From Legionella sp. (GTDB lineage: Bacteria > Pseudomonadota > Gammaproteobacteria > Legionellales > Legionellaceae): 64,000 nt of DNA. The stretch is taken from the NCBI GenBank assembly GCA_002786165.1, contig PEQK01000007.1, forward strand, positions 103,069 through 167,068. The letters run 5' to 3'. How positions within the stretch are numbered: position 1 is the first letter of the stretch; the number at the start of each line of letters is the position of its first letter. This document shows, piece by piece, positions 15,001 to 18,000 of this stretch. A program made the position numbers.

Positions 15001-18000
15001 AGATTTTTTTAGATTGAGGGCTTGAAGTTGATTCATGATGTTTTTTGTTCTGGGTGAATGGTAATGACGGTTTGTTGGTCTGTTTGAGGCAAAGAGACCA
15101 CATGTTGAGTTTTAATATGATAATGAAGAACGGGGGCAATGACTTGATGCTGGCCTTGCTTGACTAGGGCGTGTCCAATCAATTCAATCCGTTCTTGTAA
15201 AGGGTAATAGATTATTTTATCCGCATACGCATGCATCATTGGTTTGTCTTGACTCATGAGTGTCCAATAATGAGCTTGGGTTTTACCTTCTCCTTCAATA
15301 ACGGCTTTGATGAGTTGGTTTTGAGCGTTGCCTTGGGTTAATGCCCTTGCAGCTCGAATATGAGTTGTGCCCTGGTCCAATGCAACACCTCCACCATACG
15401 TGCCAAGATGGGTGCTTTGATTGAGATCAGCAGAGCCTGCGTGTACCAACAGAATGGCTTTGCTGTCTTCTGGCAATGCCATAATCGCTTGTGAGAAGCA
15501 CAATAGCGCAGCTGCGCTCAGTGTGTGGTGGTAAGCGGGATAATTAGTGCGCTTGAGGTACATAATGTCCTCGGGCGTTTGAAAGCAGGCGGATGTTATT
15601 ATCAGCCATGTTTGCAATGAGTCCTTTGGATTGGACTTTATTGCCAGCTTGCGTCAGAGTCACTTCATCGTCGGTCACGGCTTTTTTTTGTTTAGGAAAA
15701 TAAGTCAGGTGCTCCGTATTTAATAGGACTTCCGTTTGATCGGGTTTATGCTGTCGAATGCGTACGTTTTTTTGAAAAGCAATTTCTTTTCCGCCCTCAA
15801 TCGCTTTAGCGTGCTCCGCGCGTATGTCCCAAGGTTCTTGGTTGGGTTCTGTGACGATGATATGCGGTTGGCTTAAGAGATGGGTATTATGTATGGGGAT
15901 GTGTTGAATTAACGGTGTTTCCAAAAAATGGATCATGTCCCCAGCAATATCGAATTGGCGATAGGTCAGATCATAAATCATAATATTAGTCGTTTTGGCT
16001 AAGGTTTCGCTGTCCATAAGATGTAACATATTCTGGCGACTGTGCATCCATTGCCATGCCAACGCCATCGTGGATAAGAGGATCAATCCCCACCAAGCGC
16101 TTTGTTTGGTGAGGCTCATCATGCGTGAATATATCCATGAATGGCTGCTTCTGTTTTATTTTGAGTCGCTAAAATAAAATCACAAGCTTCACGTAATCCA
16201 CCACGTCCACCGGCTAAAACAGTTGTCCAGTCTGCATGGGTTTTGACATGGTTGACCGCATTGGCGACAGCGATAGAAAACCCAACTTGCTGCATGATAG
16301 GCAGATCCACCACATCATCGCCAATATAAGCAAACGCTTCATCCGGGAGTTGTAAAGTGGCTTTTAGAGTATCGTAGGCCTGTTGTTTGTTAATTTGCCC
16401 TTTGAAATAGTGACGAATGCCTAATTGATTCATACGATGGTCAATAATGGCATTGAGTGAGCCGGTGATCACTGCGACTTCAATTTGGGCTGCCATTAAT
16501 AGTTTTAATCCAACGCCATCTTGAACATGGAAGGATTTTAATTCGTTGCCATGATTATCAATATAGTTAAGACCATCGGTCAATACGCCATCTACGTCAC
16601 AAATTAAGCATTTAATGTTACGGATTTTATCCAGCATTTGTTCCATTGGGACTCCTAATAAACACCTGCGCGCAATAGATCATGCAAGTGAATGACCGCA
16701 GCAGGGCGATGATCGGTATCGAGGACCACCAAGGATGTAATGAGATGTTGTTGCATGAGGGTTAGGGCTTCAGCAGCTAACACACCAGCTGGAACGGTTA
16801 AACAATCGCGGGTCATGACTTGGTGTAATAATGTATGATTGATATCGTGTTCTTGATTTAGCGTGCGGCGAATATCTCCATCGGTATAAATACCAGTGAG
16901 CACACCATGTGAATTAACAACGCATGTCATGCCAAGTTTTTTGGCAGTGACTTCAATCAATGCTTCACGCACAGTCACATCTTCGCGCACAAGTGGGAGC
17001 GCTTCGCCTGTATGCCATAAGTCATTAATACGTAATAGTAATCGCTTGCCCAAGACGCCACCCGGATGAGACAACGCAAAATCTTCTGCACTGAATCCAC
17101 GCGCTTGTAATAAAGCAACCGCCAACGCATCGCCCATGACCAGTGACACTGTGGTACTCGTAGTTGGCGCAAGACCTAAAGGACATGCTTCGTGGGTAAT
17201 GCTGATGTCTAAATTAATGTTGGCTGAAGTGGCCAAAATGGAGTCAGGCTGACCGGTTAGGGTGATCAATGGCACACCCAATCGCTTTAAAAGAGGCAAT
17301 AAAATGACTAATTCTTGGGTGTGTCCAGAATGAGAAATGGCCAAAACAACGTCTTGACGAGTGATCATGCCTAAATCACCATGGCTTGCTTCACCAGGAT
17401 GCATAAAGAAAGCGGGGGTACCGGTACTGGATAAAGTAGCTGCTACTTTATTGGCAATATGCCCCGATTTTCCCATGCCAGTGACCACCACACGACCCTT
17501 GCAGGAGAGTAATAATTCACAAGCTGCTTCAAAACGCTCATCGATACGTTGTGCTAAATCGAACACAGCTTGTGCTTCTGTTTCGATGACGGCCAAACCA
17601 AGTTTACAAAAATTCATATATCGATCTGCTGCGATCACGGATTAATAATGCGCAATCGTACCATATATTTTGTGTGGATTATACAAAGGTGCGCTGACAT
17701 ATTCTTAAATGTAATGCGTTATTTATTCATATTTTACGTTTTACGGTGGTCCTGCATCAAGATCCCGCGGACAAGCCGCGGGACGTAGAAATGGAAGTCG
17801 TGTGAATCCTAGCCTCCGGCGCAGAGATAGGGGTCGTGTGTATCCTAAGCTGCGGATGTCATGATAAGGCTCGTCTTACGTCCTACCTCCCGCGGCTTGT
17901 CCGCGGGATCTTGATGTAAAATCAACGAATTCAGCACATTAATTCTAGTTTTTATATAAGTCGAGATGGAAATTATAGGCAATGCGAGTATATAATTAGT

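What the first reader, a model, noticed from the sequence alone, without database searches (positions are those of the whole stretch)
17755..17916. MITE-like composite element in the kdsD / mlaF divergent promoter region
A 162-bp element is bounded by ~34-bp inverted repeats (catcaagatcccgcggacaagccgcggga[c/g]gtag). Each terminus is itself a hairpin: a 7-bp GC stem CCCGCGG/CCGCGGG with loop cttgt. The interior holds two imperfect direct repeats. It sits in the 385-bp region from which the LPS-core operon (kdsD-…-lptB) and the mla-murA operon diverge. It could affect both promoters or encode a structured small RNA.
Basis: seen in the sequence. Interest (0 to 1): 0.55.

Follow-up and report, generated by a model that had tools for sequence, protein, structure and literature searches.

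The report
Inverted pair of Ssn-type REP hairpins
The 162-bp element is a lineage-specific insertion made of two inverted copies of a short hairpin repeat that is scattered through Legionella-like genomes and that elsewhere brackets the gene of a small single-strand DNA nuclease (Ssn), so it belongs to a recently characterised repeat class and is neither a classical MITE nor a conserved regulatory RNA.

Summary
Window 17755-17916 has 34-nt inverted arms (33/34 complementary), each with a CCCGCGG/CCGCGGG hairpin, and two 36-nt direct repeats inside. The window comes from a Legionella sp. MAG.

The arms are units of a very widespread repeat, consensus (CGTC|CTAC)-GTC-CCGCGG-CTTGT-CCGCGG-GAT-CCAG. 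It has the anatomy of Di Nocera's CGTC-tagged REPs and of the NTS/SRM repeats of Chenal et al. 2025.

Two more solo units lie in the window, and more than 150 lie in other Legionellales genomes. In related genomes inverted pairs of this hairpin bracket a 96-aa GIY-YIG gene. That protein is 61% identical to one flanked by canonical Neisseria-type NTS, so it is an Ssn single-strand nuclease.

Five related lineages (81-91% KdsD identity) lack the element, so it is a lineage-specific gain.

It is not a classical MITE. There is no target-site duplication, and the 94-nt interior has no second copy in anything searched. The IS-type terminal repeats of the Legionella MITEs are also absent. No ssn gene lies in the 64 kb.

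Most likely it is a tag-to-tag dimer of Ssn-related hairpins acting as single-stranded DNA. Any effect on the kdsD and mlaF promoters is untested. Verdict: new member of a known kind, moderate-to-low interest.

The parts
17755..17788 (-). Left hairpin unit, forward on the - strand: tag CTAC, stem GTCCCGCGG, loop CTTGT, stem CCGCGGGAT, tail CTTGATG. Core hairpin is 17764-17782.
   Evidence: nhmmer profile of the family hits 17796-17760, E 3e-9.
17883..17916 (+). Right hairpin unit: tag CTAC, then CTC-CCGCGG-CTTGT-CCGCGG-GAT, tail CTTGATG. Core hairpin is 17889-17907. It differs from the left unit by one base (C for G at the stem base).
   Evidence: Profile hit 17878-17912, E 1.7e-7.
17784..17855 (.). 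Two 36-nt tandem direct repeats (17784-17819 and 17820-17855, 75% identical) on the tag side of the left unit. Read on the - strand, each begins with a degenerate half-hairpin (CCGCAGCTTAG / CCGGAGGCTAG against CCGCGGCTTGT) and ends with a tag-like CTRCG.
   Evidence: (D1) and direct reading. Across the family, tandem repeats fall on the tag side in 25 units and on the tail side in 5, of 354 units.
17856..17882 (.). Rest of the spacer. It ends in a stuttered tag, CGTCTTA-CGTCCTA-C, just before the right unit.
   Evidence: Direct reading.
17689..17754 (.). Window-specific, A+T-rich DNA between the conserved kdsD-proximal block and the element. It has no counterpart in the 90-91% relatives.
   Evidence: Pairwise alignment with L121 and L122.
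17917..17927 (.). Window-specific 11 nt (TAAAATCAACG) beyond the right tail. Its reverse complement CGTTGATTTTA resembles the stop-codon region of ssn next to the hairpin in L009 (TCGTTGATTTAG).
   Evidence: This is a weak similarity.
17967..17996 (+). mlaF promoter-like site TGGAAA-18-TATAAT, conserved in relatives and left intact 51 nt from the element.
17618..17688 (-). Conserved kdsD-proximal block, with a TATAAT at 17683-17678 on the - strand. The window-specific DNA begins 5 nt upstream of that hexamer.
10515..10547 (+). Solo unit CTAC-GTA-CCGCGG-CTTGT-CCGCGG-TAT-CTAAGG, with a compensatory A-T for C-G at the stem base. It lies between lnt and a Fic-domain gene, at the edge of a 1.9-kb lineage-specific insertion.
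26949..26982 (+). Solo, diverged unit CCTC-TTT-CCCGCGG-CTTGTT-CCGCGGG-ATATCTA, between a 133-aa ORF and the 3' end of mfd (convergent genes). It sits at the edge of a segment not homologous to the relative.

Best explanation
The element is a tag-to-tag inverted dimer of the Legionellales version of a CGTC-type repetitive extragenic palindrome. This is the repeat class called NTS or SRM (Ssn-related motif) in Neisseria and other bacteria.

Shown:
- Each arm has a 4-nt tag (CTAC, a variant of CGTC), a 9-bp stem, a 5-nt loop and a short tail.
- The unit is a multi-copy family in Legionellales.
- In related genomes two inverted units bracket the gene of a 96-aa GIY-YIG protein of the Ssn family.
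- The element is absent from the orthologous site in related lineages.

Inferred:
- The units work as DNA, not RNA. When the region is single-stranded (replication, repair or incoming transforming DNA) each strand folds one forward hairpin.
- That hairpin is bound by an Ssn nuclease encoded elsewhere in the genome and nicked a few bases on the tag side, as shown biochemically for the Neisseria, Wolbachia and other Ssn/SRM pairs.
- In this dimer both tag sides face inward, so both predicted cut sites fall in the 94-nt spacer.
- The spacer's two 36-nt direct repeats are partial, stuttered copies of tag plus half-hairpin, a pattern that recurs on the tag side of such units.
- The element arrived, or was built up, in this lineage between the two divergent core promoters. 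It is probably tolerated there rather than selected as a regulator.
For: Anatomy and family:
- A scan of GTDB species genomes with the 17-mer core stopped at its 120-locus limit, mostly in Legionella, Coxiellaceae, Berkiella and other gammaproteobacterial MAGs. The flanks are constant: (CGTC|CTAC)GTC...GATCCAG.
- The base pair next to the fixed core covaries: C-G 94, A-T 15, G-C 10, T-A 6, against 5 non-Watson-Crick of 130 units.
- The description fits Di Nocera 2013 (PMC3733652): tag CGTC with variants, stem 8-9 bp, loop 4-5 nt, tail CCA, frequent inverted dimers with 20-100 bp spacers.

Nuclease link:
- A 96-aa ORF with Pfam GIY-YIG (E 3e-15 and 3e-16) lies between inverted units in L025, L032, L077, L050 and L009.
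- 80 metagenome loci were picked by this protein alone. Of the 76 with full flanks, 49 have a G+C-rich perfect hairpin upstream, 63 downstream and 42 on both sides. Control windows show 4.2%.
- One such protein, flanked by exact NTS consensus, is 61% identical to the Legionellales one (E 6e-43).
- Chenal 2025 (PMC11893778) shows that Ssn proteins bind the forward strand only as ssDNA and cut upstream of the tag.

Lineage-specific gain:
- The kdsD-mlaF intergenic region is 191-205 bp with no hairpin in L121, L122/L123, L126/L127 and L128, against 406 bp here. L124 and L125 also carry no unit in the parts recovered.
- Both promoter-proximal blocks align. Window 17689-17927 replaces about 38 nt.

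Context:
- All three size-changing synteny breaks against L122 in window 4973-27418 carry the window's four units.

Stutter:
- Tandem repeats lie on the tag side in 25 units and on the tail side in 5, of 354 units (p 3e-4).
Against: - No ssn gene or remnant lies in the 64-kb window: a profile of 82 Ssn proteins against six-frame pieces gives a best E of 0.59. The rest of the genome could not be read, so a cognate nuclease in this organism is assumed, not shown.
- The published degenerate SRM pattern does not match any window unit or the Legionellales consensus.
- The arms' tail is CTTGATG, not the family's CCAG. However, the C right after the palindrome, reported as most important for SsnA binding, is kept.
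- The tag is CTAC, while cleavage by the Neisseria enzyme depends on the three bases before the palindrome. Recognition by a Legionella Ssn is therefore an extrapolation.
- Tag-to-tag dimers are the minority arrangement (11 of 67 adjacent pairs).
- The insertion junctions are not clean, so the event cannot be reconstructed base by base.
Confidence: 0.75

Rival explanations
1. It is a classical MITE: a deletion derivative of an insertion sequence, moved as a 162-bp unit by a DDE transposase that recognises the 34-nt terminal inverted repeats.
For: The arms are 34 nt long and the size is typical of MITEs. Real MITEs and a complete IS carrying this hairpin exist in Legionella. The IS has the layout TA|GGGCGTGTTGACAATT...-tag-hairpin-[IS5-family DDE transposase]-[ssn]-hairpin-tag-...AATTGTCAACACACCC|TA in L. 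pneumophila. Derivatives of about 190 bp lacking the genes occur in L051, L084, L075 and L013.
Against: A profile of IS end + tag + hairpin matches the window only from the tag onward, so the GGGTCTGTTGACA terminal repeat is absent. No direct repeat flanks 17755-17916 or 17689-17927. The interior has no second copy in the window, in 120 genome loci or in the JGI metagenome scan. In the real MITEs the hairpins are subterminal with tails facing inward, the opposite of the orientation here.
Confidence: 0.08
2. Two independent solo units landed next to each other. The 'element' is then a coincidence of two insertions, with native sequence surviving between them.
For: Solo units exist in the window. 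The aligner places a piece of the relatives' native sequence (GTGATGAGACGGGCACTCG) against 17858-17876, inside the spacer. Intergenic spots with indels attract units.
Against: The two arms share a tail (GATCTTGATG) seen in no other unit listed, and the 29-mer that includes it is absent from 185,579 species genomes. They are therefore each other's closest relatives. The internal match to native sequence is weak (13 of 19 with a gap) and differs between L121 and L122.
Confidence: 0.12
3. It is a conserved cis-regulatory structure or small RNA gene serving the divergent kdsD/lpt and mla/murA operons.
For: It lies between two divergent operons of envelope biogenesis. It folds very stably as RNA on either strand. 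REP-derived MITEs give small RNAs in Coxiella (PMC5896051). The left terminus supplies a TTGATG that makes a weak promoter-like site facing kdsD (9 of 12).
Against: It is absent in every relative examined, while the promoter-proximal blocks are conserved. No Rfam match was found. It lies upstream of the conserved mlaF promoter-like site. Promoter-like matches in the region (3) are within the chance expectation (1.4, sd 1.3). The same hairpin occurs in many unrelated contexts.
Confidence: 0.04
4. It is a REPIN in the strict sense, an inverted REP doublet copied by a RAYT (IS200/IS605-like tyrosine transposase).
For: It is an inverted doublet of REP-like hairpins with a spacer. On the other strand the tag reads GTAG.
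Against: GTAG lies 3' of the hairpin here, not 5' as in GTAG REPs. The tag occupies the place of CGTC in clearly homologous units. The gene found between inverted units is a GIY-YIG nuclease, not a Y1 transposase. Di Nocera 2013 found no RAYT flanked by CGTC units.
Confidence: 0.01

Closest known systems
NTS / Ssn-related motifs (SRM) and the Ssn GIY-YIG single-strand nucleases (Chenal et al., Nat Commun 2025, PMC11893778)
   Same: An oriented hairpin repeat with a 4-nt tag, an 8-9 bp G+C-rich stem, a 4-5 nt loop and a C-led tail. It is present in many copies. Inverted pairs bracket a single-domain GIY-YIG gene of about 95 aa. The Legionellales protein is 61% identical to one flanked by exact NTS consensus.
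   Different: The published degenerate SRM pattern does not match the Legionellales units: the stem starts GT instead of AT, and the tag is often CTAC. Legionella is not mentioned in the main text. The window dimer is tag-to-tag with no gene between or beside it, and no ssn is in the window.
CGTC-tagged REP super-family (Di Nocera, De Gregorio and Rocco, BMC Genomics 2013, PMC3733652), including Neisseria dRS3 and Rickettsia RPE-4/-6
   Same: The tag, stem length, loop length, CCA(G) tail, inverted dimers with 20-100 bp spacers and intergenic location all agree. The alphaproteobacterial units with the very same core (CGTC-ATCCCGCGG-CTTGT-CCGCGGGAC-CCA) fit their description exactly.
   Different: The paper states that these repeats lack a dedicated enzyme. 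It lists them mainly in Alphaproteobacteria and does not mention Legionella. The first stem pair is G.T rather than A-T. The window arms carry a CTTG tail rather than CCA.
REPIN-RAYT systems (Bertels and Rainey 2011; Nunvar 2010; Ton-Hoang 2012)
   Same: It works alike in outline. Inverted REP doublets are recognised as single-stranded hairpins by a small nuclease or transposase whose own gene sits between two inverted REPs.
   Different: The enzyme fold differs (GIY-YIG against HUH-Y1), and so do the tag and its position. Mobility of SRMs by Ssn has not been demonstrated.
Coxiella burnetii QMITE2 (Wachter et al., BMC Genomics 2018, PMC5896051)
   Same: It is from the same bacterial order, is 150-190 bp with terminal inverted repeats and a REP core, lies intergenic, and is a source of a small RNA at one locus.
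   Different: QMITE2 has 7-11 nt direct repeats and is described as a GTAG REP that is a target of IS1111. Its sequence is not given in the text held, so homology could not be tested.
Legionella IS5-family IS carrying ssn, and its roughly 190-bp MITE derivatives (seen here in L209, L077, L050, L051, L084, L075, L013)
   Same: They carry the same hairpin units, subterminal, in inverted pairs.
   Different: Those elements end in TAGGGTCTGTTGACAATT-type terminal repeats with TA on each side and have tails facing inward. The window element has neither feature.

Membership tests
CGTC-tagged REP (Di Nocera 2013) | Short G+C-rich palindrome with a stem of 8-9 bp and a loop of 4-5 nt | tested here: met
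   The forward strand of the left unit has stem GTCCCGCGG/CCGCGGGAT (9 pairs including G.T) and loop CTTGT. The right unit has 8 pairs plus a C.T mismatch.
CGTC-tagged REP (Di Nocera 2013) | Unpaired 4-nt tag CGTC (variants TGTC, CCTC) at one end | tested here: inconclusive
   By alignment with CGTC-bearing homologues the tag position reads CTAC in all three strong window units, a variant not listed in the paper. The 4 nt directly before CCGCGG read CGTC (left), CCTC (right) and CGTA (solo).
CGTC-tagged REP (Di Nocera 2013) | Complementary A-T at the first and second stem positions | tested here: not met
   The stem begins GT...AT (a G.T wobble, then T-A) in 95 and 120 of 130 family units respectively. 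The alphaproteobacterial copies with the same core do begin AT.
CGTC-tagged REP (Di Nocera 2013) | Short unpaired tail, consensus CCA | tested here: not met
   The family consensus is CCAG, but the two arms have CTTG and the solos have CTAA and ATCT. The leading C is kept in three of four.
CGTC-tagged REP (Di Nocera 2013) | Multi-copy, intergenic, often in inverted dimers with 20-100 bp spacers | tested here: met
   There are 4 units at 3 intergenic sites in the window and at least 120 loci elsewhere. Of 67 adjacent pairs, 58 are inverted. The tag-to-tag spacer here is 94 nt.
Ssn-related motif, SRM (Chenal 2025) | Match to HGTCWYN(0-2)YYVSBRHN(0-5)WNVSBRGN(0-2)RNCYNB | tested here: not met
   The regex matches the NTS consensus and the alphaproteobacterial same-core unit. 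It matches none of the four window units and neither Legionellales consensus.
Ssn-related motif, SRM (Chenal 2025) | Inverted copies flank a single-domain GIY-YIG (cd10448, Ssn) gene | tested here: met
   This holds for the repeat type in other genomes: L025, L032, L077, L050, L009, L129-L138, L209. Protein homology to an NTS-flanked Ssn is 61%. It was not shown for this genome.
Ssn-related motif, SRM (Chenal 2025) | An ssn gene is present in the same genome | not testable with these tools
   None lies in the 64-kb window. The MAG's other contigs could not be retrieved.
Ssn-related motif, SRM (Chenal 2025) | Bound and cut as single-stranded DNA, one strand only, by the cognate Ssn | not testable with these tools
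   This needs biochemistry.
MITE | Terminal inverted repeats | tested here: met
   34 nt, 33 of 34 complementary.
MITE | Target-site duplication flanking the element | tested here: not met
   No direct repeat lies at 17754/17917 or at the alignment-defined borders 17688/17928.
MITE | Several copies of the whole element in the genome | tested here: inconclusive
   The spacer has no other copy in 64 kb, in 120 genome loci or in the JGI metagenome scan. The rest of this genome was not available.
MITE | Ends shared with an autonomous IS | tested here: not met
   The IS5-family IS and MITE ends (GGGTCTGTTGACAATT) are absent from the window units.
REPIN-RAYT | Associated gene is a RAYT (HUH-Y1 transposase) flanked by the REPs, with a 5' GTAG tag | tested here: not met
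   The flanked gene is GIY-YIG. GTAG lies 3' of the hairpin.
Coxiella QMITE2 | Sequence homology to the CbsR16 locus; 7-11 nt direct repeats | not tested
   The sequence is not in the text held. No such direct repeats occur here.

The most novel reading that the evidence does not exclude
Ssn-related hairpins may be actively copied elements whose spread leaves a footprint. Repeated nicking on the tag side by the GIY-YIG nuclease could produce stuttered partial copies (tag plus 5' half of the stem) and new units at indel-prone intergenic sites. On that reading, the window's tag-to-tag dimer, with its two 36-nt partial copies and an empty site in 90% relatives, is a young product of this process. 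It would also show that Legionella has its own Ssn/SRM system, with a CTAC tag and a G.T stem base, that the published search motif misses. In L. pneumophila that system rides inside an IS5-family insertion sequence.
Probability: 0.2. Interest if true: 0.6.

Novelty: new member of a known kind. Interest (0 to 1): 0.33.

Why it matters
The finding itself is ordinary. It is a dimer of a known class of bacterial hairpin repeats, sitting harmlessly between two core promoters.

Three things give it some value:
- The Ssn/SRM pairing described in 2025 for Neisseria, Wolbachia and others extends to Legionellales, with a repeat variant that the published search pattern does not detect. Counts of such repeats in this order are therefore likely underestimates.
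- In this window every unit sits at a lineage-specific indel. One is the insertion of a Fic-domain gene, a common effector type in Legionella. This echoes the link between NTS/dRS3 and variable genes in Neisseria, and may help in reading genome plasticity in a naturally transformable pathogen genus.
- The excess of tag-side partial tandem copies is a sequence footprint that could bear on the open question of how CGTC-type REPs multiply.

Tried and rejected
- Rfam at gathering threshold over the whole window, and at E up to 10 over the region, found only chance-level matches (P36, snoR9).
- BLAST of the element against plasmids found nothing.
- The exact 29-mer of the arm in GTDB species genomes gave 0 hits.
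- The spacer pattern GTCGTGTGWATCCTARSCTSCGG in JGI metagenomes gave 0 hits.
- Retrieval of the window's own contig through its MlaF and KdsD proteins failed, because they are not on record.
- I considered that the internal 36-nt repeats are degenerate copies of the Legionella IS/MITE terminal repeat TAGGGTCTGTTGACAATTC. By eye there is some likeness (TAGGGGTCGTGTGTATCC). However, an nhmmer profile of 19 IS ends aligns to the window only from the tag onward, so I rejected this.
- I considered that the insertion is a circular permutation of a tail-to-tail MITE. Joining the 11-nt and 66-nt window-specific flanks gives a spacer of plausible length, but it shows no convincing similarity to MITE spacers beyond GATCTTGAT. 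This is left as speculation.
- I looked for an ssn remnant beside the element. Only an 11-nt likeness to the ssn stop-codon region of L009 turned up, and the profile search of six-frame pieces found nothing.
- The terminator scan found no hit in the region.
- A RAYT as the partner enzyme is rejected.
- The far edge of the Fic insertion (8720-9000) has a different palindrome (CCTTGAT...ATCAAGG), not a unit of this family.
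Full report
**1. The observation**

The arms are 17755-17788 and 17883-17916, 34 nt each, and differ at one position. The repeat finder extends them to 45 nt at 87%. Each arm contains CCCGCGG, a 5-nt loop (ACAAG or CTTGT) and CCGCGGG.

Two 36-nt direct repeats, 75% identical, occupy 17784-17855. The 19-nt core with up to three mismatches occurs three times in the window and never in 100 shuffles. The whole element folds far better than shuffled controls, with z between -8.9 and -10.3.

The flanking genes are kdsD (SIS + CBS) and mlaF (ABC transporter), with the expected operon partners in relatives. The database KdsD is 320 aa, which puts the start at 17617 and makes the intergenic region 406 bp rather than 385.

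**2. Where the window comes from**

The KdsD protein is identical to one named by NCBI as from a 'MAG: Legionella sp.', on a 167-kb contig. That contig could not be fetched, so everything about the rest of the genome is inference.

**3. The arms belong to a large repeat family**

Most were from Legionella species, Coxiellaceae, Berkiella and unnamed gammaproteobacterial MAGs. A smaller set came from Phenylobacterium and other Alphaproteobacteria.

The flanks are constant, and the unit reads (CGTC or CTAC)-GTC-CCGCGG-CTTGT-CCGCGG-GAT-CCAG.

The base pair just outside the fixed core covaries through all four Watson-Crick pairs: C-G 94, A-T 15, G-C 10, T-A 6, with only 5 of 130 unpaired. The hairpin itself is therefore what is conserved.

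The window holds two more units:
- A solo at 10515-10547, which shows this very compensatory change (GTA...TAT).
- A diverged solo at 26949-26982.

**4. What the family is**

The anatomy is that of the CGTC-tagged REP super-family of Di Nocera et al. 2013. That family has a 4-nt tag, a stem of 8-9 bp, a loop of 4-5 nt, a CCA tail and frequent inverted dimers with 20-100 bp spacers. Its members include Neisseria dRS3 and Rickettsia RPE-4/-6. That paper does not mention Legionella and concluded that CGTC REPs lack a dedicated enzyme.

While reading loci in which two units lay about 0.3-1.2 kb apart, I found a 96-aa ORF between them. It has a Pfam GIY-YIG domain (E 3e-15 and 3e-16). In the cleanest case (L025) the order is tag, hairpin, GATCCAG, ribosome-binding site, ORF, stop, CTGGATC, hairpin, tag.

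I then chose loci by the protein alone. Of 571 relatives found in JGI metagenomes, the best 80 were kept. Of the 76 with complete flanks:
- 49 have a perfect G+C-rich hairpin within 130 nt upstream.
- 63 have one within 110 nt downstream.
- 42 have both.
- Only 4.2% of control windows have one.

The hairpins have complementary loops on the two sides, and typically CGTC outside and CCAG inside. An example is CGTC-ATTCCGGC-gaaa-GCCGGAAT-CCAG ... CTGG-ATTCCGGC-tttc-GCCGGAAT-GACG.

**5. This link is already published**

Chenal et al. (Nat Commun 2025, PMC11893778) named the protein family Ssn and the repeats NTS (Neisseria) or SRM. They showed that SsnA:
- binds the forward strand of the hairpin only as single-stranded DNA;
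- cuts a few bases upstream of the tag;
- does not act on duplex DNA or RNA;
- lowers natural transformation by DNA that carries the repeat.

They noted the IS-like NTS-ssnA-NTS layout but did not show mobility.

One of my protein-picked loci (L185) is flanked by the exact published NTS consensus, and its protein is 61% identical to the Legionellales one (E 6e-43). The Legionellales protein is therefore an Ssn.

The published degenerate SRM pattern matches the NTS and the alphaproteobacterial unit with the same core. It matches none of the Legionellales variants and none of the four window units, because the stem begins GT rather than AT and the tag is often CTAC. Legionella is not mentioned in the main text, and the supplements were not available.

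**6. Is the 162-bp composite a MITE?**

Legionella does have real MITEs built around these hairpins. They are about 190 bp and bounded by TAGGGTCTGTTGACAATTCA-type terminal repeats, with the two hairpins subterminal and tails facing inward.

In L. pneumophila the same ends enclose an IS5-family DDE transposase gene followed by ssn, with TA on each side. The same pairing occurs in L077 and L050.

The window element is not of this kind:
- A profile of 19 such ends aligns to the window only from the tag onward.
- The hairpins are tag-to-tag, the minority orientation: 11 adjacent pairs against 47 tail-to-tail and 9 direct.
- There is no target-site duplication.
- The 94-nt spacer has no other copy in the window, in 120 genome loci or in the JGI metagenome scan.

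The two arms do share a tail (GATCTTGATG) seen in no other unit listed, and the 29-mer that includes it is absent from 185,579 species genomes. They are each other's closest relatives. The dimer is therefore more likely one unit, or two copies from one source, than a chance meeting.

**7. Gain in this lineage**

The kdsD-mlaF intergenic region is 196 bp in the 91% and 90% relatives (L121; L122 and L123), 205 bp in an 83% relative (L126/L127) and 191 bp in an 81% one (L128). None contains a hairpin. L124 and L125 also carry no unit in the parts recovered.

Pairwise alignment shows homology over 17618-17688 and about 17928-18023. Window 17689-17927 (239 nt) stands in for about 38 nt. The window-specific DNA is thus larger than the 162-bp element: 66 A+T-rich nt on the kdsD side and 11 nt on the mlaF side. 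The junctions are not clean.

Across the 22 kb that can be compared with L122, there are three size-changing breaks over 200 nt. Each carries the window's units:
- this one;
- a 1.9-kb insertion of a Fic-domain gene between lnt and leuS, with the solo unit at its edge;
- a non-homologous segment next to the 3' end of mfd.

**8. The interior repeats**

Read on the strand on which the left unit is forward, the spacer is [CCGCAGCTTAGG...CTGCG][CCGGAGGCTAGG...CTACG]TCCCGCGGCTTGT... Each 36-nt repeat starts with a degenerate half-hairpin (8/11 and 5/11 identical to CCGCGGCTTGT) and ends with a tag-like pentamer. On its own this is only suggestive.

Across all oriented units with full flanks, however, tandem repeats starting at the unit fall on the tag side in 25 cases and on the tail side in 5, of 354 (p 3e-4). 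The repeated piece is typically a few bases plus tag plus the 5' half of the stem, up to five times over (L186, L144, L071, L057, L148, L025, L129).

The tag side is where Ssn cuts. The Chenal paper does not mention tandem copies. I read the window's internal repeats as another instance of this pattern. The causal link to nicking is my inference.

**9. Local consequences**

The mlaF promoter-like site (TGGAAA-18-TATAAT, 17967-17996) is conserved in L122 and lies 51 nt beyond the element.

On the kdsD side a conserved TATAAT (17683-17678, - strand) is retained. The window-specific DNA begins 5 nt upstream of it, so any -35 region differs from the relatives. Neither version has a good -35 by eye.

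The left terminus supplies a TTGATG that gives a weak outward promoter-like match (9 of 12). Three matches in the region against 1.4 expected is not evidence. No terminator-like site and no Rfam family were found.

I conclude that a regulatory or small-RNA role is neither supported nor excluded, and that tolerated insertion between two core promoters is the simpler reading.

**10. Verdict**

It is a repeated, lineage-specific, possibly mobile DNA. It is not a classical MITE, and there is no evidence for an RNA or regulatory role.
- The best-supported identity is a tag-to-tag dimer of Legionellales-type Ssn-related (CGTC-type REP) hairpins.
- The kind is known. The Legionellales variant, its escape from the published motif, its place inside an IS5-family element in L. 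pneumophila and the tag-side stutter are small additions.
- Interest is moderate to low.

Noticed in passing
Window 8775-10657 (Fic-domain ORF 8981-10465; solo unit 10515-10547): A 1.9-kb segment carrying a Fic/DOC-domain gene lies between lnt and leuS. The 90% relative L122 has only about 100 bp there. The solo hairpin unit sits at the lnt edge. In L126 the same spot holds a PhdYeFM/PIN toxin-antitoxin pair, so it looks like an insertion hot spot.
   Followed up: partly
Window 25941-27022 (solo unit 26949-26982, tRNA 25810-25894): The segment between mfd and an amino-acid permease is not homologous to the one in L122. It contains two small ORFs without Pfam hits and borders an 85-nt tRNA gene. 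The diverged hairpin unit lies 29 nt from the mfd stop codon.
   Followed up: partly
L209:2020-3370 (L. pneumophila GCA_042949305.1); also L210, L077:3900-5250, L050: The L. pneumophila ssn homologue lies directly downstream of an IS5-family DDE transposase. Both sit inside one unit bounded by TAGGGCGTGTTGACAATT-type inverted ends with TA on each side and subterminal hairpin units. An Ssn/SRM module appears to ride in, or be captured by, an insertion sequence.
   Followed up: partly
L051:~6400-6700, L084:~750-1000, L075:2520-2760, L013:6940-7130: These are MITEs of about 190 bp in Legionella MAGs: IS-type end, tag, hairpin, a spacer of about 58 nt, hairpin, tag, IS-type end. They look like deletion derivatives of the IS above. 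The outer end contains a perfect TTGACA facing inward.
   Followed up: partly
L186:~2390-2460, L144, L071, L057:~2230-2330, L148:~200-300, L025:5520-5600, L129:~770-830: Tandem arrays of two to five partial copies (a few nt + tag + 5' half of the stem) lie on the tag side of Ssn-related hairpins. Tag-side arrays occur in 25 of 354 units and tail-side arrays in 5 (p 3e-4). The main text of the Ssn paper does not mention them.
   Followed up: partly
Proteins P0121-P0240: Nearly all close homologues of the Legionellales Ssn sit on very short contigs, with the longest usually 0.5-2.6 kb. This is what assemblies do at multi-copy repeats and suggests that the ssn unit itself is often multi-copy.
   Followed up: no
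L125:1-181: In the 83% relative (GCA_964494305.1) the contig ends 181 nt upstream of kdsD, inside the intergenic region. The 181 nt carry no unit of this family. Whether a repeat caused the break is unknown.
   Followed up: no
Window 8939-8966: A different palindrome, CCTTGAT-(13 nt)-ATCAAGG followed by a T-run on the + strand, lies at the far edge of the Fic insertion. It is not a member of the hairpin family.
   Followed up: no
L032:3540-4240: Several whole hairpin units alternate with a conserved spacer of about 45 nt (gacgacggcgaagggaaaacacgctgcgacgtcactttattac) next to an ssn gene. This cluster is reminiscent of the mosaic NIME/BIME arrays.
   Followed up: no
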